Source: Pecten maximus (Eukaryota). Taken from it: a DNA stretch of 64,000 nt. The notes below the pieces were generated by a model. The model made no database searches and had not been told where the DNA came from. It worked only from the letters and a program-made list of their open reading frames with translations. Location: the NCBI RefSeq assembly GCF_902652985.1, contig NC_047023.1, positions 24,614,001-24,678,000 on the forward strand, given 5' to 3'. Positions 5,251 through 31,427 of the stretch are shown piece after piece. Position 1 is the stretch's first letter. Each line of letters opens with the position of its first letter. A program made the position numbers and the translations under genes.

Positions 5251-5767
5251 ATAGTGTAATAATTATCCTCGGTCAGCGCTTTATAAATATGTCTTTAGCA
5301 GTTGTGATGACGTCAAGCCCTATACAAATTAGTTTTATTTCGGTACATTCATGTCAGTAAAACGTTTGTTAGATTTTGATTTTAAACCTCCATCTTCCAT
5401 GTACATTATATGTAAATCATGCAATCATATACGTCTCAGATAATGAACAAAACACGAAAAACTTTAATATTTTATTATTGAAAATAAAAATCTTGAACAA
5501 TAATATTTTATTATTGAAAATAAAAATCGTGAACAATAACGATGGATATATTTACAACATTGCCGTACAATTCTGTCGATATATGTCTGATTGCCAATTT
5601 GTCTGAAGAAGTTACAGCGTATTTATAGTTCTTTACGAGACAATACCATATTACAACAGTCAATTGTGTCATGCTCAACTGATACATGATATTTCAAGAT
5701 AAAGTTTGATGAAATAGATAATAACGAGGGGAATATAATCCTGAACATGCACACTCGTGTCGACTCG

Positions 5768-6307
5768 TCACAGAATAGTGCAACAGCAGTCATCAGCGGC
5801 TTCCTGCCTTTGGTGACTTGCCACGATTTCTTCTGCTATCTGCATTTTCAGTTCGAGTCTACTCTTCAGTATCAGTATCGGTATGAAGTAATTCTCCACC
5901 ATCCACTCCATTTTGAAACACATGATTCGGTTGACGCGTGTTTGCGTTCCACCAATCATAATGTTGTTTGACACCAGCAGCTGTCGATTGACTGAAGATA
6001 TTTCGAAAAACTTGTTCCTGGAATCTCCACACATTTCCTCGTTGTGAAATATACACTTGTCCGTTAAAAGGCTGGGCGACAAAAGCAAGCACATAATGGT
6101 GAGTTGGTCTATTTCTGTCTCCGTTAGAAGATAATATCTCCGGTAGTCTGTCAGTCTGTTCATATCCTCATCTCGCTCCTCCAGATTGATGAGATCACAA
6201 ATACATTTTAGGTAGAACATCAGTTTTGCTTTGACGTCATCCGGCACGTGCACGGTAGATCCCACGTCACGAACGCCCACCTCGCGTCTTGTCATCACCG
6301 CAGCCAT
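5768..6307 (-). CDS. Uncharacterised 179-aa protein with C-terminal CCC-TIL (CaaX prenylation plus palmitoylation signal)
   Basis: Single ORF with coding-like, GC-elevated composition in AT-rich flanks; globular-looking sequence; Kozak-like AAGATGG start. Confidence 0.8.
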   Translation of the reverse strand: MAAVMTRREVGVRDVGSTVHVPDDVKAKLMFYLKCICDLINLEERDEDMNRLTDYRRYYLLTETEIDQLTIMCLLLSPSLLTDKCIFHNEEMCGDSRNKFFEISSVNRQLLVSNNIMIGGTQTRVNRIMCFKMEWMVENYFIPILILKSRLELKMQIAEEIVASHQRQEAADDCCCTIL

Positions 6308-8113
6308 CTTCGTGTCCTTCAGGTGTCAATTAAATTGATTGTATTGATTTTGTAATTCCAATGCCTTCTTTCCTCATTAAAAGACTACTCGGACGTATTC
6401 AATTGTCCACCAGAAATGTGTTGATTAGCACTGGCACAACTTTCCAATGACTTTAATATGTGGTGTCCATTCTATTGCAGGTACTTTTCACCAAAAAGTC
6501 AAATGGGTGGATTTATGTTTCTTCTCTCTGCTTATTTATAGTTTTATAATATCTATTTACTTCCTGCTATAGACAAATATGCGATAACAAGTTGATACAC
6601 ATGCACTCGCGCGGATCCTTTGTGCAAGGTTCTCCACGGTATAGACGCCATGGTGTAATTACCATATTAGACAAACCATTGGTTTACTTACTGCAGATAC
6701 ATGAACTATGTATAACATGAACTGCTATAACAATGAAGTCTCGAGCGCTCTGATTTTCTTTAATTCGAAAACAAATACAACAAATACAAACCACCTAATG
6801 TTTACATAATGCGTGTCTATAAAATGTTATCGTACACACATGTACGTTACAGGTGACAGGTGTAGGATATTTATATAGACTTGGCGGTGTTTAAACCAAC
6901 TGATAGGCTATCGATTATTGGTGACTGGTATATATATAGCCAACGGTCACATAGCACTACGTTTGTATTGTACCAGGGCAAGCTGTGGTGTGCCTATATT
7001 AATTCTTCCGAATTTGAAACTTTTTATGAAAAACTGATAAGAATGATATATACCCATGTATTTCATAAATACACAGTACCAGTTAGTTGGTTAGATGTGT
7101 ATAGAGTACTTACTGTCTTTAATATTGTTAACAAATCGCATAGAACCCTCAGCACTGTTCGTCTATTGACAGACATAACTCGGTTGTTTACATATTAATT
7201 TCGATGCAGTATATATTCAGCTTAAGCCTGATATAGGGGAGAGTAGCGAGACTATAAAAGTTTATTAAGTGTATGACATTTACTTACGTTCAGTATCATA
7301 GTGGTCAAATTGTTGAAATCTTTAATCGACTTCTATATGTACATGTAGCCGATATGAATGGGGTCGTGATATTATGAGCATGCTGTGATGAAGGACTACC
7401 GAATTTAGTCAAATGTAGCTATTTTCGAGGTCACAACAATCTAATGTTGAAATCTTTAACATCTTGTTCTCAATAACCTTCAGTTCTAGGGTCATGATAC
7501 TGGGATAACGGCATGTTGAAATGAATGACTGCAATATTTGTTCAAGTGAATGACCTTGACCTATTTCACATAGGTCAAAGAATTACTGGAGTCAATTGTG
7601 CTACAATGATCAAATATTTGTTTCGGCATAGAAAACTTCCAGGGTAATAATGATAGAAGGTAATGATTACTGATAAGAATGAGTGAGAATTTTAGTTCAA
7701 TATATATGCCAAAAACGAACTTTGAGAGCACATGAATTAAATCTTCCAAAAAAACTTTTCTGTACAATTCACAGAACAGGTGAGTGGTACAGACCTGTAG
7801 ACTTTATCCTACACATTTAAAATGAAATATTTATTTAAATATTGTTTTCGAAGTTTGACACTCACATTGCCAGATGTCTCCTAATCAATATTTTTTCCTT
7901 GATTGAAATTCATTGGCGAATATACTGGTACGGTCAGTTCTCGGCAATGAAAGGTGATGACACCCACCTGATCCACGATATTAAGTACTTCAATTCAGTG
8001 ACAATTATTGGCTAGTTACCTCAGCGTAGGATGATAGTATCAACTTAAGTGGCGAATTGAATGTATATGACTTATATCTCTTGGGTGGAGATTGTACGCA
8101 AGACACACCAGAT

Positions 8114-11100
8114 TTAAGCACATTTCAATACAGTTTCTGAGTTATAGTAGACATGGTGATACCGTAGTGACAGGTCAGAAAAATTATCAAATAATTTTAA
8201 TGCCGAATGTTTGTGAGCGATGTACGTCGCGAGGGCCCTACTTGAAACAAAGAGTTTGTGATAGGGATGGTTGTCATCCATCAATATACTGGGTTGGTTG
8301 ACACGTGGCGGACGATTAGATCCTCTGTCACTTGCAAATGAAGATATATCATCCCAATCGAATTCTTCCGAGCGTTTTTTTCGTCGTTTAGTTGGTAATT
8401 CTACAGAAAATATGTCATTATCGTTTTCAAAAAGTGTGTTCAAGCTCTTACTCTTACGCATTCGTGTATTTGGAGTAACTTCCTCTGTTTGGAGGTACTT
8501 CGGTTTTCCTTCCAACAGGTCCCAAGCAGGCTCGTTCTTGCGGGTCTCTCTTGTCTTGACGAAGTGTGCTTTCGCCATTGCGGCGGAAACGCTTGCTGCA
8601 AATTTAGATGTATGTTTATTGTTATCTTTTTCTTTGTTCGAGCTACCTCCCATTACGTCCCAATCTGTTTTCATGTTTGGAATTGTATGTTCCCTAGCTA
8701 CGGCCAGCGCAGCAGCTGCTTTCCAGTCTTTACGACCTCTCGGCTTAATGGCAATACCAAGGGGAGGTTTTCCATCGCTGTTTGTCGAAATTATGGGAGA
8801 CTTCGATCTAGGTTGGTTGATGTTTGCACCATCGTCATTGGTCACTCCTGATCTATTCTGGCCTATGTTCCCTGCCATGTTTTGATTCGCTACTGTTGCT
8901 GCAGACATAGTCGTAACTGTACTGACACTATCAGGTCTATAAGAGACATTTTGATCATTTCTGATCGTTGGATTATCGCCCTGTGGATTGTAGTTTGACT
9001 TTGAGATGTGTTCGGGGTTACTGTCGATAGGCCCCAGTTTCAAACCGTTTTCAGACCTACTTGATTGGTAGGTATTTGGTTGATTGTTAGCATTGTTATT
9101 TGAACTTTGCTGATTTACCGAACGGCCAGCATTATTTGAACTTAACTGGTTCACCGGCTGGCTAGCATTGTTATTTGAACTTTGCTGGTTCCCCGACTGG
9201 CCAGCATTGTTGATTGTCAGATCTGAACTCGAATTACCTTTCTTTGGGTAAATGTTTCCCGACAATAAAGCCATCACCGCTATATTCTTTTCGTTCTTTT
9301 TTGCCTTTCGTTCTGCTTTTCTTTCTTCTCTTGTTTTCTCCGGTGATGCAGGAGCATCGCTGATAGAGTCATTAGAAGGCGCATCATTTAAACTTAGGGC
9401 GCTTTGTTTTACGCTTTTATTCGATGATCCGTTGTTACTTGTTATTTTGTTTGTTTCTGCTGCGGTATTGTTAGATGAAAACAAGGCAGAAATAGCCGCG
9501 TTCCTTTTCTCCGCAGTCTTAACTGTCAAAAGAACAGGTTCTGGAGTTTTTGCCTTTTTGTTGGTGCTCGGACCATTGTTATCTTGATAGAAGTCGCTTT
9601 TGTCTGTTGAAGCCACATGTTCATTACTAGAGCTTTTGACATCTTCAGCAAAAACAACTTTGCGTGTAGATGAGCCGTATTTTGTTTCCATATACGACGC
9701 CACTGCTTCTTTTTTCGTCAATGGGTTTTTCTCTGTTTCATTACCTCGCGATGCTTGTTCTTTATTTTTTCCTGTTTGAGTGTTATCATTTCTTCTCTTC
9801 TCATCACTTATCCGATCATTGGTTGATTCAGGTACATTGTTCACCTGTCTATCAGTACGATCCTTGGATTGTTCTGGCGTTTCATTTAAAGCAGCTACAA
9901 CCAGTACCGGTGGCATTGTCGGTTTCTTTTCAGGCACTTTCGTGTTCACATTTGGTTTTGGCAGTGATTCGTTTTTCTGATGATTAGTAACTGTTTCTTT
10001 CATTTTGTTCTTTCTAGATTTTTTCGTCGATCTTTTGGTAGGTTGTTTACTTATTTTTTCTGTTCGTTTTATTACAAAGCAGCACACCTTTTTCTTCTTT
10101 ACCTTGTTTTTTGACTCCTTTGATTTTGCCTTGTTTTTCCTGCTTTTTGTTTTAGATTTGGATGTGTGTGCTCCTGTCGCTGATACAGTGGCTCCTCCTG
10201 CTGCTATAACGGTTATGTCATCTATGATAGTGGCATTGTCTTCTTCTTCGGCGTTATCGGTATAGTAATCGTCAGAATAATCAGAATCGTCATACTCGTC
10301 AGACCTGTTGCCACACACACAAGATATGGTGCTTGTTGATTTTTGTCTTGAGTCTCTTATTCTAGGTTCGTCTGGTTGATGACCATCACTGTCACTATCG
10401 TAGTAATCATCGTCGTCAGAATCGTCGCTATATTCTTCCTCCTCATGTGATTTCTTGTTGCAACAATTTGTACAACCAACACATTTAATCTTGCACAGAA
10501 AACAACCCCTGCACTTTTTGTTGCCTTTTGATTTCTTCGTTTTCTCCGATCGAGGACGCGATGACTTTGCAGATTTGGATTTCCTGCTCTGCTTCTTTCC
10601 TGCTTTATCTGTAGCATGCGCTCCTGACATTGGTAATGCTCCTTTATTATCTTGGGTTTGGAGCGAATCAGAGTCATAGCTTTCTTCTTCACTAAACTCG
10701 TCATCAGAATCGTCGTAATACTCATCATCACTTTCATAACCAAAACAGCAGCATACTGCCTTATTGTTACCAGTGTCATTTTCAATCGATTTCTTATCAG
10801 TTTGTTGCTGTTTGTCTTTGATCTTTTTGTTACTTGAAGGACGACCTAATGATGATTTTCCTCTCCTTTGTTTACTCGCAGTTGCTGCAACTACTCCGTT
10901 TGCATTGCCCGGGTTATTTAGAGATCTTCGAAGACCCTCCTCATCCTCATCGAATTCGCTCTCCTCGAAATCTGAATCTTCGTACTCTGAGCTATCCGAC
11001 GGAATGAAACAACCAACACAACACGAATGCCCGCCATTTGCCTTGTCCTCTTCTTTCTTTTTTGCCTTATCACCCGTCTTCTTTGAATTTTCTTCTTTCT

Positions 11101-11653
11101 TTTTTAGGTTTTCCTTTCCTTTTTGTTCTTTTATATTTTTTATACTTTGAACGCGTTGTTTCTGTTTGTCGTTGGATGTCTTGGATGTCTTGGATGTCGC
11201 CGTATTTTTGTCATTGGATGTATTTCCATCAGAACTAGACAAATTCTGGGTTGCAGCCGCCGCAACATGTATGCTTTTCGGTGAAGTACCTCTTTCGTTT
11301 GGATGATCATCGTACTCACTTTCCTCATCATCAGAGTCGTAGTAATAATCATCATCCAGTGAGTCACAACAACAGCAACAGTAGGTGCAACACAATGCAC
11401 ATCCTTTCTTTTCCTCATTTTCATCGTTGAAGTGTTTAGGGGTGTGGCGTCTGACACATGTAGACCTACCCGCAGCGTTCGTATCGCCAACAGCTTGTCG
11501 AGTTGTACTTCTGGTTGGTCCGCGCTCATCTTCAATGTGATATGTATCGTTGTTGCGTGAAGGGGAAACAACTACAGCGTCTGTAGGACTACTCTTTGGT
11601 ACACGATTTGCCATTGGCCTAGAATTCTGTTGTCGCGCGTAGCCACTGATATT
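8114..11653 (-). CDS. Exon 2 of a ~1260-aa signal-anchored, intrinsically disordered protein with repeated Cys-cluster/acidic/basic modules
   Basis: 3.5-kb open frame; CTTTCAG acceptor at 11655-11654 adds 13 in-frame codons (NISGYARQQNSRP) before the ORF-track Met. Confidence 0.85.
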   Translation of the reverse strand, partial: NISGYARQQNSRPMANRVPKSSPTDAVVVSPSRNNDTYHIEDERGPTRSTTRQAVGDTNAAGRSTCVRRHTPKHFNDENEEKKGCALCCTYCCCCCDSLDDDYYYDSDDEESEYDDHPNERGTSPKSIHVAAAATQNLSSSDGNTSNDKNTATSKTSKTSNDKQKQRVQSIKNIKEQKGKENLKKKEENSKKTGDKAKKKEEDKANGGHSCCVGCFIPSDSSEYEDSDFEESEFDEDEEGLRRSLNNPGNANGVVAATASKQRRGKSSLGRPSSNKKIKDKQQQTDKKSIENDTGNNKAVCCCFGYESDDEYYDDSDDEFSEEESYDSDSLQTQDNKGALPMSGAHATDKAGKKQSRKSKSAKSSRPRSEKTKKSKGNKKCRGCFLCKIKCVGCTNCCNKKSHEEEEYSDDSDDDDYYDSDSDGHQPDEPRIRDSRQKSTSTISCVCGNRSDEYDDSDYSDDYYTDNAEEEDNATIIDDITVIAAGGATVSATGAHTSKSKTKSRKNKAKSKESKNKVKKKKVCCFVIKRTEKISKQPTKRSTKKSRKNKMKETVTNHQKNESLPKPNVNTKVPEKKPTMPPVLVVAALNETPEQSKDRTDRQVNNVPESTNDRISDEKRRNDNTQTGKNKEQASRGNETEKNPLTKKEAVASYMETKYGSSTRKVVFAEDVKSSSNEHVASTDKSDFYQDNNGPSTNKKAKTPEPVLLTVKTAEKRNAAISALFSSNNTAAETNKITSNNGSSNKSVKQSALSLNDAPSNDSISDAPASPEKTREERKAERKAKKNEKNIAVMALLSGNIYPKKGNSSSDLTINNAGQSGNQQSSNNNASQPVNQLSSNNAGRSVNQQSSNNNANNQPNTYQSSRSENGLKLGPIDSNPEHISKSNYNPQGDNPTIRNDQNVSYRPDSVSTVTTMSAATVANQNMAGNIGQNRSGVTNDDGANINQPRSKSPIISTNSDGKPPLGIAIKPRGRKDWKAAAALAVAREHTIPNMKTDWDVMGGSSNKEKDNNKHTSKFAASVSAAMAKAHFVKTRETRKNEPAWDLLEGKPKYLQTEEVTPNTRMRKSKSLNTLFENDNDIFSVELPTKRRKKRSEEFDWDDISSFASDRGSNRPPRVNQPSILMDDNHPYHKLFVSSRALATYIAHKHSALKLFDNFSDLSLRYHHVYYNSETVLKCA

Positions 11654-11792
11654 CTGAAAGAATAAGAAAGGGGTGTGGTAAATACATGAATATTTCCCCA
11701 GATAGATACGAAAAGTGGAAACTATTATACATAATAGACCTTAATATTGACGATTATTTAAAGAACAAATTATAAACATGAGCAAATATTAC

Positions 11793-12035
11793 CTGTTGGG
11801 AATGGTAGATGTCGTCATCAAAAACATCATCGTCGTCGTCGTCGTCATACCGGTTGTGATTACGTCGCTGTCTACGTTGACGCCGCTGTCGTCGTTGTCT
11901 AGCTTCCTTTTTCTTTTCGTAGCAGAGATAACACTGCTTACACATCCAACACGAACAGAAACCAACCACAACGCCTGCCACTATTAACCCAGCGATGATT
12001 GCGATGATGAAGTACAGAGGAATGGTTCCGAACAT
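11793..12035 (-). CDS. Exon 1 of the ~1260-aa protein: N-terminal TM anchor, juxtamembrane Cys cluster, (RQR)n and poly-D
   Basis: MFGTIPLYFIIAIIAGLIVAGVVVGFCSCWMCKQCYLC...; 81 codons then CAG|GTAAT phase-0 donor, in frame with exon 2. Confidence 0.8.
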
Positions 12036-13849
12036 GACTCAACTGAAACGTAGCATTTTGTAGATTCAAGAACTAGCGGAGATCTAGTTATCATTTCAGA
12101 ATTACAATATTAACTATGCAAAGTGTAGATAATATTGGTTGGTCATTTTGTATCCTTATAAGTGTAAATAGTATATATATATATATAAAGAGAGCAAACT
12201 ATTAACAGATTATAAAATTACACTTAAAAAAGTACTAGATCAATAAGACAAAGTGTCTTCTGCCTTATAGAAAACACCTGTCATGCAAATTTAGGTAAAA
12301 GTCAGGATATCCACGTCAAATAACGAGAACCAAGTTAGTGATAAATATCTCGTATGTCTTGGTGTGTTAGTGTGTTGATGCATCACGCAGGAATAAATGC
12401 CCTTACGGATAATTTTCAAAGGGCAATTCAGTTTGTTTACAATTTAAATAAAACATTATGTTAACATGAGACAGATGCATTATCATATAGTACATGTATA
12501 TATAATTATACCGTTTTGTCAAGAATATTAACTTATCTTTTAATGCTTGGGCTTATCAATCCCAAACTGGGAACTACTTAACAACTCTTACTTATTTATT
12601 TATCTATTTATTCATGTTTGCAAACATAAAGTTCACATATATTTCAAGGTGTTGTATCGAAGGTACAGTTATAAGGCTTAATGGTGTTAACCATACTGAC
12701 ATCTGTTATATACTATATTACCGTAGAGGGAAAAAGTTCATAATATACAACTTAACGTTCTTTTGAAATATTGTACATTATGCAAATCTAATATCAAAGA
12801 TTTTCAAATGTATTGAATAATGGGTCTTCTGCACCTCCTATCTAGGTTTTTGGGCATTTCTTCCTGTTTGTGTAGCGTTTTGGTCGCCTTCTTTAGCATC
12901 ACTGACGAGTCATAGATGGACAAAACTGCGGTAAAGTGCAGTTTAATTCATTTTCGCTCTACTGTATTTAAATGTATCTTGGGTGTCCTTTGTACAATCC
13001 ATACAGTTACAATAATACACATGTTTTAGGTAGCTTTAAGTCGGTAAGTTGAGGTCACGGTTATAAACCCGTCTACACTGTGAGGATTATTATCAAACTT
13101 TAACCGAGTACTGACATCAGCTTGTATAGCAGGAGGGCTTAATGAGGTCAAGTGTTAATCGTGTTAATCCACTTTTATATTATACTACATATACACGTAT
13201 TTAGAATCTCCCCATAGCATATCAGTAAAGACGTGTATACTTTATGATAAGTGATGCTGATGTAATGCTTTTGTTACATCGAATACGTCATTATTACTCT
13301 AATTTGAAACGCAATATTGAAATTTATTGAAAATAATATTCTTTTGTAGAAGAGTTTGGCATTTGATATATTTCTAGTATTTAATCCGTTTTGGCTCTTT
13401 ATCTCACTCTCAATTTGTTCTGAAAGATGTTAATATTTTGTGTCTTTTGTACTATTCTCTGACTTAATGAAAACTTAATGTAAGTTTAACTAATGTCAAA
13501 TGTTGTAAACGGATGAATTATTCCTATCAAAAACAGAAGAATAAGTTTAATAATTGTGATTCAATGTCGTTCCCGAAACGGCAAGATGCTGTGAACAATA
13601 AATATAATTGAGGTAAGAGAGTTCATGTGATATTCGACAGACAAATGCCTAACTAATAACTATAGACCCCGATATAACAGGAGTAATCACTAACCGGTAA
13701 CACGGGAGATTATCTAAAGTAGTCGTCTCTGGCTGATTTTATTATAATTATGATAATTCACTTACCTTTAAGTTCTATATTTTGCCAAAATATTAATCCA
13801 TTTTATAATAATGATGACGGGAATACTGTGGTTGTCGTGTGTCGTGTGT

Positions 13850-14010
13850 CATGTGACATCATCCTAGCTTGTTGAATAACGTCATGTGATATCCTTCTAG
13901 GTGTTGAGTAACGTCATGTGATATCCTTCTAGGTGTTGAGTAACGTCATGTGGTATCCTGCATAGCTGTTGACTTACGTCATACGATATCATCCTAGCTG
14001 TTGAGTAACT
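13850..14010. repeat. Short ~33-bp tandem repeat (GTCATGTGATATCCTTCTAGGTGTTGAGTAAC-like), ~5 copies
   Basis: Direct repeats visible in the sequence. Confidence 0.75.
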
Positions 14011-19896: not shown

Positions 19897-21249
19897 CTAA
19901 CAATCCGTTGAATCCTTCCTATGATGAGGTTCATACAAAATGGCTCGAACTTCTGGACCTTTCACAGCAGGAATATTATTAAATGTCGTCTGTTTTTCAA
20001 GTCCAGGTTTTATAATGTCATGCGCATCGCTTTTCTCCGGGAATGGATCATACATACCTACAGGAGATTCCACATTGCCCGGTATTGCAGCAAGTCTCGG
20101 CGGTCGCGAGACTTTGGGTTTTCGCGCCATTTTCTTGGCATCCTCAAGAAAGTTGTGGATGTAGGTATTGTCTGTGTTGTTTACACGATTGTCATATATC
20201 ATGTTGTACTCGATACGATTTATCGGAGGAGTGACATCGCCCGAGCTATCTTTGCTGGGGTACGTTATGCTATCCGGGTAACTTTTCAGTGGAATGTCCC
20301 AAAGTGTGATTGGGTGACTGGCAGCTTTAGATGGATATCGTAGATAGGAGTGATCACGAGTCCGTGGAATGTCTTGTGGTCGGAGAGGGACAGCTGTGGG
20401 ACAACTAGCGATGTCACTAAAAGGCACCCTGTGGTCACTTGCTGCTGTTGGAGGAATATTTACACTGTTGACATCTACCGATTTAGCAGTCGAAGTTAAG
20501 GAACGCTGTGGAAATATGTCTATTTCAGCTTCAACATCATTGGGTAAAATTGTCGACGGATGTCCAATAGATTTTGACTGAGTAGAGTAACTTTTTGGAA
20601 GTGGACTTGGCGGCTTTAACACACTTAAATCCGTTTGAACATTTGCCGATTTAAATCTTCGCTCTGGACTACTCATAGCGGAAGTGGATGCATCCTTTGT
20701 TGTCATAACTATCGGAGTCAATACTTCTGGATTTATTTGCATCGGCGCAACGGCTCTGAGTGTGCGTGGCGTTCTTGCAGACGACATTTTTGACGAAAAT
20801 TGGGACACACTAGGTGTTAGTGAGCCGCGCCTGTCCGTTATGGTTCCAATGTCTTTAGTTGGCATTTCCTCCTCGATACATTCATACTGTGTACCGAAGG
20901 TCTTGGACTTGGGCGAGGGGTAGATGACACGCTCCGCTACGTCCTCGTACTGTGTCCCAGCATTCCTAGCCATCGGTGTGGTATGGATTCGTTCATACTG
21001 AGTTCCGGTGACCTTAGCCATTGGCGTGGTATGACGTGTTGAATGTCTCCCTGCAGACGACGGTATCAGTATCGGGACTGCGTCCAAAGAATGATGGCTG
21101 TCAACACTGACCAGGCGCATCGCACGAGGTTTGACCTCATTAACTCTATATCCATCCAAGGACTCCATGGATACCACGCTCTTTGTTCTTTGTTTTCTAC
21201 TGACATCGTCTTTCCTTCCATCCCTTTCCATAAAAACACCGTCCATTTT
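19897..21249 (-). CDS. FN3/mucin type I membrane protein, last exon (disordered S/T/P-rich cytoplasmic tail)
   Basis: TTTCAG acceptor, phase 0, 450 codons to TAG; repeated GTQYE motifs. Confidence 0.85.
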   Translation of the reverse strand, partial: KMDGVFMERDGRKDDVSRKQRTKSVVSMESLDGYRVNEVKPRAMRLVSVDSHHSLDAVPILIPSSAGRHSTRHTTPMAKVTGTQYERIHTTPMARNAGTQYEDVAERVIYPSPKSKTFGTQYECIEEEMPTKDIGTITDRRGSLTPSVSQFSSKMSSARTPRTLRAVAPMQINPEVLTPIVMTTKDASTSAMSSPERRFKSANVQTDLSVLKPPSPLPKSYSTQSKSIGHPSTILPNDVEAEIDIFPQRSLTSTAKSVDVNSVNIPPTAASDHRVPFSDIASCPTAVPLRPQDIPRTRDHSYLRYPSKAASHPITLWDIPLKSYPDSITYPSKDSSGDVTPPINRIEYNMIYDNRVNNTDNTYIHNFLEDAKKMARKPKVSRPPRLAAIPGNVESPVGMYDPFPEKSDAHDIIKPGLEKQTTFNNIPAVKGPEVRAILYEPHHRKDSTDC

Positions 21250-21621
21250 CTGAAATAAAGTTGCGTTTTAAAATAGTAAAGAGTAATAAATCAATGGAAT
21301 GCAACATCCTTATTCTAATCATTATTTGGATATTTCAACAATAAGACAATTACGTGTTTATATATCATATCTTTGAACAGACTTCTATGTAGTGTAAAGA
21401 TATCGGCAAATTCTACATGAAAAGGTATTTTCGTAAAAGACGAGCTTATTCAGACGAATATACGATTAAGAAAACTCAAAATAACTCTGTTATCTGAATA
21501 TGACAAATATTATTATAAGGTTAACCCATGCTTCATATACGATAGTTACACGGTGCATTAGTCGCCATTGATTAACCAGTGTTTAGCAATGTTTTCTATA
21601 TATTATAAATGTAATCGGTAC

Positions 21622-21803
21622 CCTTTTGTCGAAAACTCTCTCCTCGCCTCTCGTCTTAGCCCCAACAGCTGCTTCCTCGAAACAACACCACCGGCAACAA
21701 CAACAAATTAACAACGACAGCAACAGCAGTAGCAGTAAGGCGCCAACAGCTATGGCCACTAACATCCAAAGGTCAAGGCCAAGGATCTTGTCGTCAGCCG
21801 AGT
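21622..21803 (-). CDS. FN3/mucin membrane protein, TM exon with juxtamembrane CCCCRWCC
   Basis: CCAACAG acceptor; LWMLVAIAVGALLLLLLLSLLICCCCRWCC; AGG|GTACC phase-0 donor. Confidence 0.88.
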
Positions 21804-22450
21804 CTGTTGGAAAGAAGAGTTGAAGACATTTTGTAAAAGCATGCCAAAACCCACACAGACAAAAATGGATATAAAGTCACAGTGCTTCAATAGTTCAGGA
21901 GAGGAAATATAAACCCAACCAACTTTGACACTGCTTATTCGATCTGAAAGATGTTTACATGCATGCCGGCATCATATCCCACTGCTTCGAAAGACTTTGC
22001 AGACATAACAGTAAACTGGATAAACCATCTACCAATTACAGACACCACATTTCCTCCAAACATGTTATCAGTAAATTCAAAATCGACACCATTGAAGTGC
22101 CCCCCTTTGCTAAAGTACGAGACAAGGCAGAATTTATCAGTATTATCTCGTGTAATGTATATAATTCTATCGCAGGAACCTCTCTCCGCTGGTACTGCCA
22201 AACTGATAAGGCTGAAACGTTGGACAAACACGATAAATGACTGAATACGAAAGTCTTTTGAAAGTTTAATCTTTTATCTGACACCATTGCGGTATAAAGC
22301 ATTATCCACAACGTAAGGGGCAACAGGTTAATCTTACAATGTCCGCGTGTGTGTGGTAAAGGAGTCTCTAACTAAACACAACATAACTGAGAAGCAGTCA
22401 ACATGCTATCTAGCACATGTCTTAATCAGGGTACTTAGATGGATGCTTGC

Positions 22451-22879
22451 CTTTGCGTGTAGTTTCTGATGGCCTCGTCATTGCTATGGGCGTGGTCGTA
22501 TGTATTAAGTAGGACGAAGGAAACTTTTTGGTAAAGATTGACGTCATATCACTGCTGCTTGTGGACATAAGCGCTATTGTTGCACCTGAAGTTACCAGTG
22601 GAGCAGTGACTTTAGGAGATAGTTGATTTATCGTAACGGATGATGACGATAATTTCGGGTTTGACACCACATGTGTCGTAGAAATACCGACTGGCAGCGT
22701 TTTCGTGGTTTGTACTATTTTCGTTGTGGCAGGAGTTACAATTCTTGGCGAAGTAATGCTTGTTGACTTGGACGTTATCGGAGCGGTGGTGGTAGTGGTG
22801 CTGGTAGTGGTGGTGCTGGTAGTGGCAGTAGTAGTAGTGGTGGTGACGAGGGTGGTTGATGTAGTGGGAGCTGTAGTAG
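22451..22879 (-). CDS. FN3/mucin membrane protein, Thr/Ser-rich stalk exon
   Basis: TTGTAG acceptor; poly-Thr/Ser/Pro; probable AAG|GCAAGC (GC) donor giving the required phase 1. Confidence 0.8.
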
Positions 22880-23144
22880 CTACAATGAAATAAAGATATT
22901 TATGTTACATCTTCCATATGATCAATGAATTTGAAGTGTAAATTAACAATAGATATATTGGTATTAAATAAAATGTCATGCCTCATGAAGTTCATATTGG
23001 AGAATTAAGTAATAATGAATGTAAAATGATTATGTATCCACTGTATTTCCAGTTGTCTATTTTGTTTACATGTGAGACAATTATTTATCTTTACATAAAA
23101 CGACAGAGGATATGAAAAGAATGATATCTTTATAAGTTACTGAC

Positions 23145-23332
23145 GTAGAGGATTGGTGGTGACGGTGAGAAAGGGTCTGCTCGCTGGACCTAGACCTACG
23201 TCGTTGATACATTGGACTAATATCTGATAGACTGTGGAGGGCTGCAGACCCCGGATGACTCCGGTTAGAGTGCTCTCCCCTGACACATTAGTAGACATTA
23301 CTTTACCACTTACTGCATCTCTATACGTCAAT
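23145..23332 (-). CDS. FN3/mucin membrane protein, C-terminal half of FN3 domain 2
   Basis: LTYRD...IRGLQPSTVYQILVQCINDVGLGPAS: FN3 L-x-P-x-T-x-Y and GxGPxS motifs; AG/GT boundaries in phase. Confidence 0.9.
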
Positions 23333-23492
23333 CTGTATGGTAAAAAGAAACCTTTTGTAAGACATAAGAAATGTTTCTCATACCAAATATAATTGAGATT
23401 TCTCAATTTATTGTTAAGATACTGCTGATATGTAAGCAAATAATTAGATATTATAATACATCTACGATACATACCTATTACACGTAGACGTA

Positions 23493-24865
23493 CAGTGCCA
23501 TGCAAAAAGTGAGTAGCCACTTTCAACGTCAAAAACGACGTTTTCGCCGTTACGTCGTATTTTAATAAAATGAAAGAAATATATTTTCAAGTAATATTGT
23601 TATATCATACATCATTTTAATCGTGATCATCGTGTCCTTAATCCGGAACGCGGAATACGGTATTTGGTTTCATTTTAAGCACCGTTGTCGGTGTAAACAA
23701 TATGGCGCCACACGGTAGTGAGATGTCACAGTGCCAGAAGCAGACGATCACAGCAATGCACGAAAGTGGAATTTCTGGACGAAAAATTGCTGAAATATTG
23801 AACATATCCCGTTCAACAATTCAGAAGTTTCTCCAACGTTTTCACGAGAGAGGAAGTTTAGAAAACAAGCCCCGAAGGGGTAGGAGCAAAATTACCACCG
23901 TCAGAAGTGACACTCGGCTTTCGCGGCTGATAAAACAGAACAGACGTCAAAGTTTTCCGGATTTATTGGCATCATTTAATGAGTTAAACCCCACTGAAGT
24001 ATCTGAGAGAACTTTAAAGAGAAGACTCAGTGATTTTGATTATAAAAGATGCGCTGTTAGGAAGCGTACTACCATTTCAAAGGTGAACCGTGAACGGCGT
24101 GTAAAATGGTGTCGAGATCATCGGACATGGACAGTTGAACAAAATTGGAAAAATATCATTTTTACGGATAAAACAAAGATTGTCTTAGGTCATGATAGAA
24201 AAGTATATGTCTGGAGAAAACGCGACGAGACATGGAAACCGGAATGCCTTGGTCAGTATAGTGCTCATTCGCCACGATTAAATATCTCGGTCATGTTTTG
24301 GGGTTGTATAACTTTTCGAGGAGTGGGGGTATTGACCCCAGTGGAGGGTAATATTAATTCTGAGAAATACATAAATGTTTTAGATACACATTTGTGGCCA
24401 GTTGTTGCGAAAATGTTTGGAAATTCTTATTGGATATTACAAGAGGACAACTGTCCCGTCCATGTGTCAAGACAGACCTGCCGGTGGAAAACGGAACATA
24501 ATATTGAAACAATTCCTTGGCCAGCACAGACCCCAGACATCAACATAATAGAAAATCTATGGAGATTACTAAAAATTAAACTAACAAACAGACTGAATGA
24601 CATTAGGTCAAAGGCAGATCTGGTGAGTGTCGTTTCTGAAATTTGGAATCAGCTGGACCAGACAAGAATACAGGCATTATATGAATCAATTCCAAAGAAA
24701 ATACAGGCAGTTATTAAAGCAAAGGGGTGTATTACCAAATATTAACAAGTAAGTTACATTATTTTTGCTATTATATTGAAAAAACGTCGAAAATACAAAG
24801 CCATCTACTTGACATTGCAAAATGACGTCGCGTAGAAGTGGCTACTCACTTTTGGCACTGCACTG
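23493..24865 (+). mobile_element. Full-length Tc1-family (DD34E) DNA transposon in an intron
   Basis: TA flanks; ~30-bp TIRs CAGTGCCATGCAAAAAGTGAGTAGCCACTT / CAGTGCAGTGCCAAAAGTGAGTAGCCACTT; intact ORF. Confidence 0.95.
23702..24745 (+). CDS. Tc1-like transposase, 347 aa
   Basis: Paired HTH, RGR linker, FTD...QEDN-x-PDINIIE with 34 residues between the second D and E. Confidence 0.95.
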   Translation: MAPHGSEMSQCQKQTITAMHESGISGRKIAEILNISRSTIQKFLQRFHERGSLENKPRRGRSKITTVRSDTRLSRLIKQNRRQSFPDLLASFNELNPTEVSERTLKRRLSDFDYKRCAVRKRTTISKVNRERRVKWCRDHRTWTVEQNWKNIIFTDKTKIVLGHDRKVYVWRKRDETWKPECLGQYSAHSPRLNISVMFWGCITFRGVGVLTPVEGNINSEKYINVLDTHLWPVVAKMFGNSYWILQEDNCPVHVSRQTCRWKTEHNIETIPWPAQTPDINIIENLWRLLKIKLTNRLNDIRSKADLVSVVSEIWNQLDQTRIQALYESIPKKIQAVIKAKGCITKY

Positions 24866-25024
24866 TATATTATATCTAGTACAGTAAAAGAGGTATAGAG
24901 CTCGATCCCAATTAAAAGAATTAATACATTGATATCTTAAAATGAAAACATAGATGTACACGTTAATGAAATAGACACAGTATGGTTATATGATTTTGAA
25001 TACATCTGAATATATAGCACACAT

Positions 25025-25390
25025 GCTTGCATAGAAAATGGGATATGGCAGTGGTAACGTGTACTGTGGGAATCACAAGGTTGGCAACTCCGCTACGAGC
25101 GAAACGGCACCCCACCACACCTCAATCCACTAAAAAACTCATTAATTCAAACTGACACAGCGCATACTATATACTGCCGCCATCTAGAAACATTCATCTT
25201 TAACCTACCGTGTCACTCAATACGAATTGTTACATCCAAAACACAATAATCCGTGAAAACATCGCCGAATTCCTCCTTCAGGACACCATTTTTGAAAGGT
25301 CATGCGTTTATATAATCGACTGTCACCAGGTGCACTTTTTGGGGTCATCTCGGCATGCTTTAATTTACAGGTGCATGTACAGGACGTCGT
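25025..25390 (+). repeat. Left arm of a long inverted repeat (partner ~30160-30577); fold-back-type element
   Basis: AAACTGACACAGCGCATACTATATAC...CATCCAAAACACAATAATCCGTGAAAACATCGCCG is found as its reverse complement at 30.3-30.45 kb. Confidence 0.85.
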
Positions 25391-26036
25391 TTGCGAGATC
25401 ACGAACTAATTAAGATAGCATGTTTTAATGCCAGTGATGAGATAGTCCTTTCCCTTTCTTCAACTGCATCATTTCCGTAGTTGTTGAAACTTCGTTTTGA
25501 AATCGAAAGATTGCAAACGGTGCTCAATCACTTGTTCAAGACAGGGCCTGGGCATTATACGTATACCATGAACTAGCAGTATCGGTTGATTTTTTTCGAA
25601 GTTGTTAAAATATGGACGGGGTAATAGCTGACAGTTATTTGATATTTTGGTTTTCAAATTGAACTTATGTATTTAGGGTTATGCCTATCTTTAATTAAAA
25701 AAAAAAGCAAAAACAAAAAAACATGGACCACTACATGACTATAAAAAGTATTAACAAATATATAGACCACACACAACACCGGTAAATATTGGAGGTTTAA
25801 TTTTTTAGGCAGTTCTACAACCGTCGGTTCATTTAATTTGTTCTGAGAGATTGTTTTCCTTTTTATTTAATAGCATTTGACCTCTATCGTTTAAGCGTGA
25901 TGCCTTTTTATTTTCTGGGCGGGGGCTCTGGCGTTGACACAAAATAACAACTAGAAATACTTAAGTATTATCTTTTCTTTCTCATTTCAATTCAGTTTCT
26001 TTACTCTGTAAGCCCTTCGGCCAGCTTAACCATTAT

Positions 26037-29000
26037 TACAATACAATACAATACAATATTTTATTTATTAGAATGTCACACATTTTTACAACATGGTAAA
26101 AACAAAGTCATGATAGATAAAAATACCAATTAGAGTAAAAATGTCCAGCCATATTTGGCTTACGAGACACTTAAAAATTATATCTATTAAGAATATCAAG
26201 TATCTTGTTAAAATTATTTAGGATTTAAGAACACAACTTCGACTTATCTAAAATTGCAAGATTAGAAAAACTACCAGTGTAGTAACATAACCTCCATATT
26301 TGGGTAAAGATACATAATAATGTACAAATTAAACAAAATTAAAACATAATCTTCGTCTGTACATGTTGTATAATGTCGATGCTAACGTGGATTGTAAGTT
26401 GGCATTTTGCATAAGAAATAGTAATTTGATTGAAGAATCAAGATTTGTGATTTGGTAAATAAAATAATGCTTTGTTGTATAAAGAAAGTTTCAAATCTGA
26501 GTAAAAGTCACAATCTATGAGAAAATGAGTTTCATCTGCCAAAGAGCCTGAATGACATAAAGTACACTTTCTCTCCTGTAAAGGCGTAACAGCATGAGAA
26601 TACCGACCCGTCTCTACTTTAAGTTTCAAATTGCCACAACGAAATTTGGCTAAGGTTTGTCGATGTTTATAATTCATGATCAGGAGCTAGACTATATTTA
26701 TACGTTCGGTAGGTCCTAAGTTTATTACCATTGTCTTGACCAGAATCGTTCCACATTTGTCTATACCATGTAGTTTCATCCTCTTGTCGGAGCGATAGCT
26801 TTGCTTCATTGAGACATGATGTATAAGACGGGTTAGGTTCTAAAAGAGAGTTCAAGTTCCGTACATTTAACAGAGATTCCACGCGTTTGTCCCAGCTTCT
26901 TCCTCGGGAGAGAGACCAGATATGAATTGTTTTTATAAGACGCCCGGGCTCACAACACTTGATTTTTAGCCAAAGCCTACACACTTCTATTTTTTGTTTC
27001 GTTGCGCATGAGTTCCACCCGAGGTCGCCATGTTCGAAACATTTTTTCCGGAGCCCAAGAAGTAGCGCCCGGCCTTGTTTTGCACAGTTTGAACAAAACG
27101 ATAAGAATTAACTCCCCATATACCGGCACAATAGAAAAGTACGGGCTCCACTAATGATTCATAAAGGTTCTTAAACACACCAAAAGACATGCCACCTGCG
27201 AATCTAAATTTGCTGTATAGTGCGCCGAGTGCTCGACTTGCTGATTTCGCTAATTCCTTAACGGTGAGTTCCATGCCAAGTGTTCCGTAAACCAGACACT
27301 CAGGTATTTATAATGATCAGCGGTCTGGATATCAAGATCGCAATATTTGAACTGGAAATTTGATCTAGGTACAGACTTGTTTCTGAAGTGAATGACGTTA
27401 GTTTTTCCGACGTTGACCGTAAGACGCCACTTCCGACACCAGTTATGTAAACAGTTCATCATCCGTTGTAAGGACGGCTCATCGGGCGCCAATAACGCCA
27501 CATCGTCAGCATACAGAAGAATCGAGAGCATACTATCACCGATCGTGTCGTCGCATCGAAGATTGTTGATTTCTTCTACAAGATCCTTTATGTATATGGC
27601 GAATAAGCTCGGCGAAATATTACAGCCTTGTTTTACGCCGTTGTTCACGTTGAACCAGTCGGTGACGTGATTTTTCAGCCGTACCGCACATCGCGACTGT
27701 GAATAGAGAGATTTCACTGCGTCCAGGAACAATCCACATATGCCGATCCTTTTACGTTTGTACCATAGGCAATGCCTGTTGACGGTGTCGAACGCTTTTT
27801 TAGCGTCTACGTAACAAACAAACGTCGACTCCCTGGAAAGTTTTCGGTTATTTATGACACTATAAAGCGAATAGATGTGGTCGAGGCCGCTCCTCTTGGA
27901 ACGGAAACCGTTTTGTTCGTCCGCTAGTAAGTTGTGGCGTTCCAGCCAGGTGTTTAAGCGTTGTCCTAGAATATCGGTATAAATTTTACTACGTACGGAC
28001 AGGAGAGATATCCCGCGGTAACTAAGCGGATTGGTGAAGTCCTTTGTATCCGACTTGGGGATAGGATGAATTATTCCAGATGTCCAATCTTTTGGTACAG
28101 TACTGTTGTCAAAACAATATTTAAAAATCGTGACAAGTATGTTCACACACGCGTCGTTTCGGAGAACCTCATCAGGAATGTTGTCAAATCCTGGTGATTT
28201 CCTGTTCTTTGCGCGCGCGATAGCTTTCTGTACCTCCTCCCTGGTGATTGGTGTATTAAGGGACGTAATATACACCGCGTAAGGAACCTCCACACTATTT
28301 GTCTCTAGTTTCGATTTTACTTCGGTGAGACGAGCCTCGTCAAATACGTTTGGATCACTTTGACCATTATAAAGTTCTTCATATTTATTTTTCCAACATT
28401 CGAGGACTAGATTTTTTTCACGTACTATGCTACCATTGGTGTTCACGGTTTCCATGGGGATTTCCGTTTGCCGTGCGTTTACTATACCAAGCTTGCCAAT
28501 CTCTTTCCACATATCTCTGGAATTGTTCTCTATTAACAGAGAATTCAGTTTAGATTGTTCTTCTAATTGGAATCGCCGTTTATGTTTTCGGTTAAGTTGG
28601 TCGAACGTTTTCCGTTCCCGACAAAAATGCTCCTTAAGTCTGCGTTTAGCCAAACCAGACCCTTTAATTTTAAGCCATTTACGTTCTCATTCATGAGCAA
28701 TGCTCCATTGTGTTTGAAGTTCTTCGTTCCAGTAGGGTTTTAATAGATATTTGGATTTGGGTCGACCAACACTTTTCCACGTTACTTTCACCCGTCTGTC
28801 CATTTCCGTGAATATTAGATCTTTTTAATTTTGAGTACGCTTGATCAATGTTTTCACTATCATTCAGATCACGCTCAATTTTCTGGATTGTAGAGTTAAT
28901 TATTTCGATACTTTCGACATCCCTTAAAAAGTCTGACGGTAAAGTTGACAAATTATAACGTTTGCTGGAATCCGGGATAACATCATGATCACTTGTTGGT

Positions 29001-29475
29001 GTTCGTTTTGTTACCATATCAAATTCGAGTATAGAATGATCGGGGACGCTGGTGTGAGCTTCCAGGCCAAGGACGTGCACAATGTCGGACATTAAAAGTA
29101 CGTTAAAACTATCAAATAAGAATAACTGTTCGTGCGGTACTATGACGTAATCGACAACTGATCTGCCCCTACTTGAGACATGAGTAAAGTCATTAGATCC
29201 AAGTCTACCGTTTAAAACACAAGTATTGGTTTCGACGAAAAAGTCAATAAAAACATCGCCATAATGATTTATTCCGTCGTCAATTGAGTGTCTAGGGAGT
29301 ACTGTATCAACACCTTCAATGAAGTCAGCCGAATCGCCAATTCTGGCATTAAAGTCCCCTGTTATACATATGTTGCCTAAAGTTTGATAAGAGTAAATAC
29401 TTTCCAAAAGGTTATGGAAAAAGGCATCACTTTCCGCTGTTCTCGTTGAGAGTAACGTTGGATGCTTACACACTC
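26037..29475 (-). mobile_element. 5'-truncated, frameshifted LINE of the L2/CR1 group (APE endonuclease + reverse transcriptase)
   Basis: EN motifs GDFNAR, DY, PDH (28691-29473); RT motifs DAKKAFD, KQG, YADD (27250-28653); C-terminal ETGRY..C..C..DETHF..C; 3' stem-loop AGCCATATTTGGCT, AATAAA and (TTGTA)n tail. Confidence 0.92.
27250..28653 (-). pseudogene. LINE reverse transcriptase domain (frameshifted at both ends)
   Basis: YRGISLLS, EQNGFR, GVKQGC, LLYADD motifs. Confidence 0.9.
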
Positions 29476-30159
29476 AATTACACTCAAAAATTTGAATAAA
29501 AAAGGTTGAAAATAAAAAGAAACTCATTCTCAATATTTCGATAATCACATAGTGATAAATCTATATGCAAGTCCCGAGTCCTGTTTGTACTCATAGAATT
29601 TTGAGAATTTCTTGGAAATATTAATCCATCATTGTAGGACTCATGAAAATAAATTGTAGATTGATCACTGACCACACAATCGTTTGGCAGGTCTGAAGTA
29701 TGAACTTCGGATTTGACGACGACATTATATTTGTAAAATTTGTGGAAATAAATTAACAGGTCTGAAGTAAGCAATGTTGGTATATGTACCAGTGACCTGA
29801 ATGCAGTCTTATTCGTAATACACTTTTATTTTTTATCGTCCTGATTTCAGCAATCTGACAAAAGTTAATCGTATAAAAAAAGCCTTTTTGTTCTACCTTT
29901 GTGACAAAAGTATGCTAACCCATTTCCTTTTAATTGCTTTTTTTTTTTTTTTTTTAATTTTCAAGTATGAAATGTCTAGGCCTACTACGTGTATGCGATT
30001 ACAGAATGGGCATTCTTGACTTCGTTTGCTTTTCCTGTGTACCGTCATATTCGGTGCATGGGAATCTCACTTTTAAAATAATGAATAATTTATTATTATA
30101 AATCATCGTTCATTCGACAAAACTCTTCAAATAATCGTAAATTAGACGAAACTCTTGAA

Positions 30160-30577
30160 CGAGCCGAAGCGTTTTCCGGACAAAATGCATGTGGAGATGA
30201 CCCCAAAATGTGTACCTGGTGACAGTCGATTATATAACGCATGACCTTTCAACTCCGTATGTAAATGAGGAATCTGGACAGGCTGAGGGAGGAGTTTGAA
30301 AAATGGTATCCTGAAGGAGGAATCCGGCGATGTTTTCACGGATTATTGTGTTTTGGATGAAACAATTAGTATTGAGTGACACGGTAGTTAAAGATGAATG
30401 TTTCTAGATGACGGTAGTATATAGTATGCGCTGTGTCAGTTTGCATAAATGTGATTTTTAGTCGATTTAAGTGAGGTGGTGTGCCGTTTCGCTGGTGACG
30501 AAGTTTCCGGCCTTCACTTTTACACAGTACACATACCACTGATATCATTTTTTATAATTCTTATTTTCTATGCAAGC
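30160..30577 (-). repeat. Right arm of the long inverted repeat (partner ~25025-25390)
   Basis: Reverse complement of the left arm with an insertion of ~45 bp. Confidence 0.85.
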
Positions 30578-30653
30578 GTCTGTGGTCTCATTTGGTTAGT
30601 TTATATCGACGAGGTAGCACTCTAAAGTAAACAAGACAAGCGAATTTTGCAAA

Positions 30654-31262: not shown

Positions 31263-31312
31263 CTAAGCAGATGCAGCCGCCTGTGATTTAATCGGATAAT
31301 GATTCTACTTAC

Positions 31313-31427
31313 TTGTACCCCAAGACGTCCCCATTCCTTTGAAAGAGAGTCACTTGGTCCCATCCCACTGTAACACTGTCGTGTGTCTTGGACAACATGT
31401 GTAACTTGCCCGGAGGAGAAGCCGGAA
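31313..31427 (-). CDS. FN3/mucin membrane protein, N-terminal half of FN3 domain 2
   Basis: TTCCAG acceptor; PASPPGKLHMLSKTHDSVTVGWDQVTLFQRNGDVLGY; AA|GTAAGT phase-2 donor matches the exon at 23332. Confidence 0.9.

What the first reader, a model, noticed from the sequence alone, without database searches (positions are those of the whole stretch)
10070..12035. Giant type III membrane protein built from a repeating basic / Cys-cluster / acidic-Tyr / Ala-Val module
Splicing 11793-12035 to 11653 gives an N-terminal TM without a signal peptide, followed by about seven cycles. The Cys clusters are CSCWMCKQCYLC, CALCCTYCCCCC, SCCVGC, VCCCF, CRGCFLCKIKCVGCTNCC, SCVC and VCCF. Most are preceded by a K-rich tract and followed by a D/E/S/Y tract (DDDYYYDSDDEESEY, SDDEYYDDSDDE, DDSDYSDDYY) and a short VAAAT-like patch. 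The modules share grammar but not sequence, so the ORF track does not reveal them. Inference: the tail is stitched to the membrane at many palmitoylated points with alternating charge blocks (CK2/Tyr-kinase sites, Ca2+ binding or phase separation). I do not recognise this architecture.
Basis: partly seen in the sequence, partly recalled or inferred. Interest (0 to 1): 0.7.

Follow-up and report, generated by a model that had tools for sequence, protein, structure and literature searches.

The report
Scallop membrane protein with repeated anchors
This is a real, spliced gene, found so far only here and in one scallop, whose protein has one predicted membrane anchor and a long predicted-floppy tail with seven conserved cysteine clusters, five of them at a switch from positive to negative charge, which likely take fatty acids and stitch the tail to the inner face of the membrane in loops.

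Summary
Transcript contigs splice 11793 to 11653 (GT-AG; 4 of 7 runs laid, 2 studies). An in-frame stop two codons before the ATG rules out an upstream signal peptide on this 5' exon. The assembly carries one extra base at 8267; the protein is about 1,232 aa. One homologue was found: Mizuhopecten yessoensis XP_021346142.1 (uncharacterised). All seven Cys clusters exist; 28 of 29 aligned Cys are conserved, against 59% of residues overall. Clusters sit at basic-to-acidic switches (p=0.00045). The ortholog carries a 109-aa tandem triplication of exactly one module and lacks module 6, so the module is a unit of gain and loss. Corrections: only five clusters show the full basic/Cys/acidic order; Ala/Val patches run through the whole tail and lie outside the duplicated unit; the Tyr residues form no SH2-docking motifs. 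Best reading (0.55, untested): a type III membrane protein whose cytosolic tail is S-acylated at each cluster, giving acid-then-basic loops along the membrane. Rivals: metal or disulfide clusters, or a secreted matrix protein. It works like TRAP adaptors, GluN2 tails and AKAP79, but repeats the anchor 7-8 times. Tissue and function remain unshown.

The parts
13766..13857 (-). 5' untranslated exon (at least its last 92 nt; true start unknown)
   Evidence: Joint 12042/13766 with GT-AG ends in X1 (92 nt on this side) and X3; the X4 loose end at 12044 resembles this exon
12043..13765 (-). Intron 1
   Evidence: Skipped in contigs of X1 and X3
11793..12042 (-). Exon 2: 7 nt of UTR with an in-frame TGA, ATG at 12035, residues 1-81
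11958..12029 (-). Hydrophobic segment, residues 3-26, predicted reverse signal-anchor (N out, C in)
   Evidence: Kyte-Doolittle up to 2.92 over 19 aa; no K/R before it, net +1 in 15 and +6 in 25 residues after; AlphaFold helix 5-59
11922..11957 (-). Cys cluster 1 (juxtamembrane, 5 Cys), followed by a basic then an acidic tract
   Evidence: Identical in the ortholog
11654..11792 (-). Intron 2 (139 nt, GT-AG, phase 0)
   Evidence: Skipped in X1, X2, X3, X4
8197..11653 (-). Coding part of exon 3, residues 82 to about 1232
   Evidence: ORF 8114-11740; contig cover; stop at 8199-8197 in the ortholog's frame
11366..11401 (-). Cys cluster 2 (8 Cys), then acidic Tyr tract
   Evidence: 7 of 8 Cys kept in the ortholog
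11009..11023 (-). Cys cluster 3 (3 Cys); its whole module is present three times in the ortholog
10745..10753 (-). Cys cluster 4 (3 Cys), then acidic Tyr tract
10460..10513 (-). Cys cluster 5 (7 Cys, spacing near helical periodicity)
   Evidence: p=0.02, one of three clusters tested
10214..10381 (-). Module 6 with Cys cluster 6 (10313-10321, 2 Cys); absent from the ortholog
   Evidence: Alignment gap; coordinates
10079..10084 (-). Cys cluster 7 (2 Cys), basic on both sides
9641..9664 (-). RVxF-like motif (candidate PP1 site; motif recalled)
   Evidence: A regex match at the aligned place in both orthologs
8267..8806 (-). Best-conserved region: Cys-free C-terminal segment with basic Ala/Val-rich stretches, three Trp-Asp motifs and basic Ser/Thr motifs
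   Evidence: 130 of 181 aligned residues identical; single copy in the genome; only the ortholog is hit
8265..8267 (-). Homopolymer run holding one extra base in the assembly, which shifts the last 21 codons
   Evidence: 4 of 4 runs lack one base at 8267; the other frame matches the ortholog's C-terminus

Best explanation
The gene is spliced and encodes a protein of about 1,232 aa with one N-terminal hydrophobic segment and seven conserved Cys clusters; it is predicted to insert N-out/C-in, its predicted disordered tail would face the cytosol, and each cluster is likely S-acylated, so that the first 600 residues would be stitched to the inner leaflet as a row of loops. Shown: gene structure, Cys conservation, cluster position at charge switches, module gain and loss. 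Inferred: the basic arm before a cluster brings it to anionic lipid and to a DHHC acyltransferase; acylation fixes it. Five of six loops run acidic (Tyr, Ser, CK2-type sites) first and basic second and most are near neutral, so the two arms could pair within a loop or with neighbouring molecules. Phosphorylation or Ca2+ on the acidic arm would shift the basic arm between lipid and protein. The Cys-free C-terminal half would reach into the cytosol and carry the effector-binding motifs. Overall role: a membrane-lining scaffold or domain organiser in some scallop cell type.
For: Junction use and in-frame upstream stop. No basic residue before the TM and net +6 in the 25 residues after it; in human proteins N-cytosolic anchors with long translocated tails average +2.08 on the cytosolic side and N-exoplasmic anchors average about 25 aa (PMC13220792, passages). 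Cys 28/29 conserved against 356/607 overall; none of 38 listed transcript variants changes a Cys. All clustered Cys lie in residues 27-606, none in the 551 residues after 660. Charge asymmetry at clusters p=0.00045; acid-then-basic loop dipole p=0.00085; Tyr 16 vs 0 and CK2-type sites 14 vs 1 in first vs second halves of loops 2-6. The ortholog's 109-aa triplication holds one basic arm, one cluster and one acidic arm. No globular fold predicted (mean pLDDT 33); the TM helix runs on through cluster 1. Precedents: two separately palmitoylated clusters in GluN2 tails (PMC3499554); three polybasic regions with two palmitoylated Cys in AKAP79 (PMC9521714); Cys-rich CYSTM motifs bind membrane by palmitoylation (PMC10840359 abstract).
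Against: No acylation, topology or localisation data exist for this protein. The immediate C-flank is only +1 over 15 residues. Clusters 2 and 6 lack a clear basic lead-in and cluster 7 lacks an acidic tract. Per-loop charge neutrality is not significant (p=0.10). An acidic tract right after a cluster would be repelled by anionic lipid (inference). Only two sequences are known, so the two significance tests are not independent and the AlphaFold alignments had depth 2. Listed variants give pN/pS about 0.73 (28 nonsynonymous, 10 synonymous), so constraint outside the Cys is weak.
Confidence: 0.55

Rival explanations
1. The tail is cytosolic, but clusters 2-7 bind metal (Zn, Cd, Cu or an Fe-S centre) or form redox cross-links between molecules; only cluster 1 is acylated. 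The protein would be a membrane-tethered metal buffer or a cross-linked structural coat.
For: Cluster 5 has CxxCxxCxxxC spacing like ferredoxin motifs (sequence; motif recalled). Cys conservation fits ligands as well as acyl sites. The best named ESM Atlas hit for the N-terminal part was stannin, score 0.78; its metal-binding CxC is recalled. CYSTM orthologs have been linked to metal detoxification (PMC10840359 abstract).
Against: No metal-binding Pfam hit at E up to 1; no folded knuckle predicted. Four clusters have only 2-3 Cys, mostly with Val, Phe or Ile beside them. The Atlas score is below the level that a third of shuffled proteins reach. Metal binding does not explain the charge switch at each cluster.
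Confidence: 0.17
2. The hydrophobic segment is a cleaved signal or type II anchor, and the tail is extracellular: a shell, byssus or egg-coat matrix protein in which Cys form disulfides, acidic Tyr are sulfated or oxidised, Ser are phosphorylated, and the opposite charge blocks coacervate.
For: Near-zero net charge with 38% charged residues in strong blocks (variance 11.1 against a shuffle maximum of 5.6). Acidic Tyr contexts resemble sulfation sites (recalled). Lineage restriction, fast change and module turnover are typical of matrix proteins (general knowledge).
Against: No basic residue N-terminal to the segment and +6 after it. The hydrophobic core of 20 or more residues is long for a cleaved signal (recalled). 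N-glycosylation sequons are not enriched (18 vs 21.4; 21 vs 22.5). Candidate cytosolic motifs (RVxF-like, RRxS) stand in both orthologs. SignalP could not be run.
Confidence: 0.15
3. Only the TM, cluster 1 and the C-terminal motifs matter; the modules are low-complexity spacer that expands by slippage and unequal crossover, and the grammar is a by-product.
For: pN/pS about 0.73 among listed variants; in-frame indels among runs; one module tripled and one absent between two species.
Against: 28 of 29 Cys kept while Ser (33/66), Thr (13/37) and Ala (15/34) drift. Modules with no shared sequence keep the same order.
Confidence: 0.1

Closest known systems
Mizuhopecten yessoensis XP_021346142.1, 'uncharacterized protein DDB_G0283697-like' (P0004, 1,459 aa)
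   Same: Ortholog: TM plus cluster 1 is 36/45 identical; same cluster order; C-terminal region 130/181 identical.
   Different: Module 3 present three times, module 6 absent, so 8 clusters against 7. Its name is probably an automatic low-complexity label (inference); a search for the accession found no paper.
Palmitoylated transmembrane adaptor proteins (LAT, NTAL, PAG, LIME)
   Same: Few extracellular residues, one TM, juxtamembrane Cys motif, long Tyr-containing tail (definition in PMC4861716, passages).
   Different: No SH2-docking Tyr motifs here; 6-7 further Cys clusters deep in the tail; no sequence similarity detected.
GluN2A/GluN2B cytoplasmic tails
   Same: A juxtamembrane and a mid-tail Cys cluster, each palmitoylated, with a link to Tyr phosphorylation (PMC3499554, passages).
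   Different: Two clusters, not 7-8; a channel subunit; no periodic charge blocks described in the passages read; no homology.
AKAP79/150 membrane-targeting domain
   Same: Several polybasic regions plus reversible palmitoylation holding an extended scaffold on the membrane (PMC9521714, passages).
   Different: No TM, only two Cys; no homology; no PKA-anchoring helix was established here.
CYSTM/CYSPD proteins and cysteine-string proteins
   Same: Runs of Cys that bind membrane through palmitoylation (PMC10840359, abstract; cysteine-string protein recalled).
   Different: Those have one cluster; CYSTM proteins are 60-150 aa with a C-terminal motif. No Pfam hit to either family.
Stannin/hemotin, FAM176 (EVA1), TMEM52, TMIE
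   Same: Small single-pass proteins with a similar TM-plus-flank look (Pfam E 1.4e-4 to 0.53; Atlas 0.75-0.78).
   Different: All below curated cut-offs or at shuffle level, and limited to the first 70-215 residues; treated as compositional resemblance.

Membership tests
Transmembrane adaptor proteins (TRAP/pTRAP) | Extracellular part of a few residues and a single TM | tested here: met
   One strongly hydrophobic segment starting at residue 3; start fixed by an in-frame stop. Orientation is predicted only.
Transmembrane adaptor proteins (TRAP/pTRAP) | Juxtamembrane Cys motif | tested here: met
   Five Cys at residues 27-38, identical in the ortholog
Transmembrane adaptor proteins (TRAP/pTRAP) | Motif actually palmitoylated | not testable with these tools
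   Needs acyl-RAC or metabolic labelling
Transmembrane adaptor proteins (TRAP/pTRAP) | Tyr motifs that dock SH2 domains (YxN, Yxx-hydrophobic; consensus recalled) | tested here: not met
   0 of 21 Tyr in residues 41-660 of the window protein; 2 of 24 in the ortholog, neither kept in the window protein
CYSTM/CYSPD | Small protein (60-150 aa) with one C-terminal Cys-rich motif | tested here: not met
   About 1,232 aa, clusters in the N-terminal half; no Pfam hit
FAM176/EVA1 | Pfam PF14851 above gathering score 31.5 | tested here: not met
   22.1 bits for exon 2; no hit at E 0.01 for the whole ortholog
Stannin/hemotin | Family HMM match | tested here: not met
   Hemotin 10.5 bits against 27; no stannin Pfam hit; Atlas 0.78 with 111 of 256 features
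FFAT-bearing VAP partners | FFAT score 2.5 or less, beyond composition, conserved | tested here: inconclusive
   2 hits in each protein against 1.9 and 1.3 in local shuffles; one (module 2, score 2) is conserved. Matrix from PMC7705450 Table EV4, adapted by me for position 4 = D/E
Ferredoxin-type Fe-S or metallothionein domain | Family HMM match or predicted fold | tested here: not met
   No Pfam or NCBIfam hit; no fold (alignment depth 2)
Secreted shell or adhesive matrix proteins | Cleavable signal peptide and presence in a matrix proteome | not testable with these tools
   No SignalP; charge flanks argue against; no paper names the ortholog

The most novel reading that the evidence does not exclude
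A membrane-stitched block polyampholyte: one single-pass protein carries 7-8 separately acylated anchors, each loop between them an acid arm and a basic arm that zip together or with neighbours into a two-dimensional condensate on the inner leaflet. Loop number is tuned in evolution by duplicating or deleting whole anchor-plus-loop modules, and phosphorylation of the acid arms switches the coat. No protein with this periodic design turned up in the paper searches made.
Probability: 0.25. Interest if true: 0.72.

Novelty: new variant of a known kind. Interest (0 to 1): 0.45.

Why it matters
Known disordered tails are re-anchored by S-acylation once or twice (GluN2, AKAP79). A natural protein that repeats anchor plus charged loop 7-8 times, and whose module number differs between species, would be a ready-made ladder for testing how acylation number and charge patterning control membrane binding, domain formation and surface condensation. 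It also shows a lineage-restricted design that homology search does not see. Against that, it is known from two species only, its tissue and role are unknown, and each ingredient has a precedent.

Tried and rejected
Homologues. Three searches of the 5.8-billion set: module region and C-terminal region each gave only P0004 (one search scored 7,981 candidates, 328); shorter proteins with the N-terminal 215 residues gave none among 1,026. Longer proteins were not searched. A profile of the C-terminal 200 positions against 1.84 billion representatives gave only P0004; relatives over 50% identical would be hidden behind it, and the module region was not run there. ESM Atlas: no usable hit for the modules, only sub-threshold hits for the N-terminus. 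PDB sequences: EFF-1A TM and tail at E 3.7e-4 was the best of 13, taken as compositional. Paralogs in the genome: none; 4 of the 9 weak hits were read and are simple repeats or unrelated ORFs.

Motifs. FFAT motifs are not above local shuffles. SH2-docking motifs are absent. Sequons are not enriched. Per-loop neutrality p=0.10 and 0.09. Internal homology: 4 of 21 module pairs had p 0.02-0.04 uncorrected; the strong 5-vs-6 score came from overlapping windows and fell to p=0.13 when fixed. A 65-nt, 74% match between modules 2 and 4 may be composition alone.

Expression. No RNA holder is on record as such; run types are guesses. Thirteen further runs of the same species label hold next to none of the words; this is no evidence on tissue restriction. 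No fold search was run, as the models were too poor. No complex was predicted.

Papers. Accession XP_021346142: 0 papers. 'DDB_G0283697': 2 unrelated papers by title. Searches listed nothing on such a protein. Subscription journals and supplementary tables are not searched, and scallop proteomics supplements could name this protein. PMC4293401 was not held. Earlier findings of the scan: none.
Full report
Setting. The window is AT-rich, repeat-rich animal DNA from a 918-Mb assembly. The only homologue of the gene is from the scallop Mizuhopecten yessoensis, so the organism is likely a scallop (inference).

Gene structure (shown). On the minus strand, a 243-nt coding exon 12035-11793 joins in phase 0 to 11653, with GT and AG ends. 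Contigs of X1, X2, X3 and X4 skip exactly this 139-nt intron: 4 of 7 distinct runs laid, 2 studies. X2 has only 20 nt on one side, and no joint is listed for X5, X6 or X7. The runs are only guessed to be RNA, but skipping a GT-AG intron shows that these contigs come from spliced RNA. A further joint links 12042 to an upstream exon at 13766 (X1, X3). The seven bases before the ATG hold an in-frame TGA, so nothing can be added N-terminally through this exon. All 4 runs (2 studies) lack one base at 8267. The neighbouring frame there reads 21 residues ending RRTSLTNIRH-stop, as in the ortholog, with the stop at 8199-8197. The assembly's 50-residue tail is thus an error or a rare allele, and the protein has about 1,232 aa. 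The gene is single-copy.

The modules (shown). 30 of 31 Cys lie in clusters against 13.7 in shuffles, and none lies in the 551 residues after position 660. Placing the six internal clusters at random in the same backbone rarely gives the observed basic-before, acidic-after asymmetry (p=0.00045; 5 of 6 are followed by an acidic tract, p=0.0011). Seen as loops between clusters (127, 114, 85, 77, 46, 76 aa), loops 2-6 run acidic then basic (summed dipole over all six p=0.00085). In those loops all 16 Tyr and 14 of 15 CK2-type sites are in the first half. Four loops are nearly neutral (+22/-24, +14/-17, +16/-17, +15/-15), but neutrality as such is not significant (p=0.10). Ala/Val patches occur ten times, seven of them after the last cluster.

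The ortholog (shown). P0004, XP_021346142.1, has 1,459 aa and the same start, TM and cluster 1 (36/45 identical). In residues 1-660, 28 of 29 aligned Cys are conserved against 356 of 607 residues overall. It carries three tandem copies of a 109-aa unit, 91-100 residues identical, each with one basic arm, one CCAGC cluster and one acidic arm, and no Ala/Val patch. It lacks the window's module 6. The module is therefore a real unit of gain and loss. Within the window protein, modules share no sequence beyond block composition. Among 38 transcript variants inside the coding region, taken from the rows that displayed (40 of 175 and 40 of 88, the best supported), 28 are nonsynonymous and 10 synonymous, pN/pS about 0.73; none changes a Cys. 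The protein thus changes fast but keeps its Cys. The best-conserved part is the Cys-free C-terminal segment (130 of 181 identical).

Family search. No Pfam or NCBIfam family passes its cut-off. The 5.8-billion and 1.84-billion sets give only P0004. Atlas and PDB hits are at noise level and rest on the TM and its flanks. AlphaFold, with two sequences only, predicts no folded domain in the tail (mean pLDDT 33) and one helix from the TM through cluster 1 and the basic tract.

Topology (inferred). The hydrophobic segment starts at residue 3, has no K/R before it, and has net +1 in the 15 and +6 in the 25 residues after it in both species. Human anchors that translocate a long C-terminal domain average +2.08 on their cytosolic side, and N-exoplasmic anchors average about 25 aa (PMC13220792, passages). 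This favours N-out/C-in. A cleaved signal was not tested by a predictor. Sequons are not enriched. An RVxF-like motif and a terminal RRxS motif stand in both orthologs; their meanings (PP1, PKA) are recalled, as are possible calmodulin-binding and Trp-acidic readings of the C-terminal motifs.

Mechanism (inferred, 0.55). Cytosolic Cys clusters next to a TM, or beside basic and hydrophobic residues, are typical S-acylation sites (general knowledge). Precedents for re-anchoring a tail exist: GluN2A/B have a juxtamembrane and a mid-tail cluster, both palmitoylated (PMC3499554, passages); AKAP79 uses three polybasic regions and two palmitoylated Cys (PMC9521714, passages); CYSTM motifs hold proteins on membranes by palmitoylation (PMC10840359, abstract and opening text). 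I propose that each basic arm draws its cluster to anionic lipid, acylation fixes it, and the following acidic arm leaves the surface, giving six loops. The arms of a loop could pair with each other or with neighbouring molecules, and phosphorylation or Ca2+ would shift that balance. The C-terminal half would recruit effectors. The Tyr residues are not SH2-docking sites by consensus (0 of 21), and FFAT motifs are no more frequent than composition gives, though one candidate in module 2 is conserved (matrix from PMC7705450 Table EV4, read whole and adapted by me for conventional motifs). Rivals are metal or redox clusters (0.17), an extracellular coacervating matrix protein (0.15) and neutral spacer (0.10).

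Comparison and novelty. It is built like a palmitoylated transmembrane adaptor at its N-terminus (PMC4861716, passages) but fails the SH2-motif test, so it is not filed there. It matches no family by sequence. Paper searches for the accession and for the design found nothing on it (listings only); subscription papers and supplementary tables were not searched. PMC9913408 was read in passages as a pointer only. The periodic 7-8-fold repetition with charge-polarised loops and species-specific module number goes beyond the precedents, but every ingredient is known and no biochemical step is shown. Verdict: real, lineage-restricted, a new variant of a known kind; interest 0.45.

Noticed in passing
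window 5768-6295 (-): Intronless 175-aa ORF (P0003) with no Pfam or NCBIfam match, ending in CCCTIL-stop, a CaaX-like box (motif recalled). It has 18 further matches in the genome, most clustered on contig C2; 4 of 6 read end in CCIIL, CCIIT or CAIL. This looks like an unnamed, expanded family of prenylated proteins. Contigs cover it.
   Followed up: partly
window 5459-8200 (-): Contigs of X1 and X6 cover most of the 1.9 kb between the stop of the main gene and the start of P0003, so P0003 may lie in a long 3' UTR or read-through transcript. A possible poly(A) signal stands at 7830-7835. Contigs cannot show a single transcript.
   Followed up: no
window 8265-8267: One extra base in the assembly relative to 4 of 4 runs; it would give gene models a false 50-residue C-terminus.
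   Followed up: yes
window 19897-32235 (-): Pieces of a probable single-pass receptor gene: FN3 exon at 23137-23586, FN3-like exon near 31735-32235, Thr-rich mucin-like exon at 22422-22904, and a 456-codon disordered last exon at 19897-21267. A LINE-type element (27250-29473) and a Tc1/mariner transposase (23642-24745, +) lie inside it.
   Followed up: partly
window 62052-63431 (-): Ankyrin plus TPR exon that resembles a Fem-1 homologue (recalled); a possible synteny marker.
   Followed up: no
window 32705-40617 and 43079-46963: Long tandem arrays: a 25-nt unit with 317 copies, an 18-nt C-rich unit with about 82-97 copies that yields repeat ORFs, and a 56-nt unit with 31 copies.
   Followed up: no
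window 8555-8743 (-): Two conserved basic Ala/Val-rich stretches in the C-terminal region, one with Phe at 1-14 spacing as in calmodulin-binding motifs (recalled), and three conserved Trp-Asp motifs further on. Untested leads for cytosolic partners.
   Followed up: no
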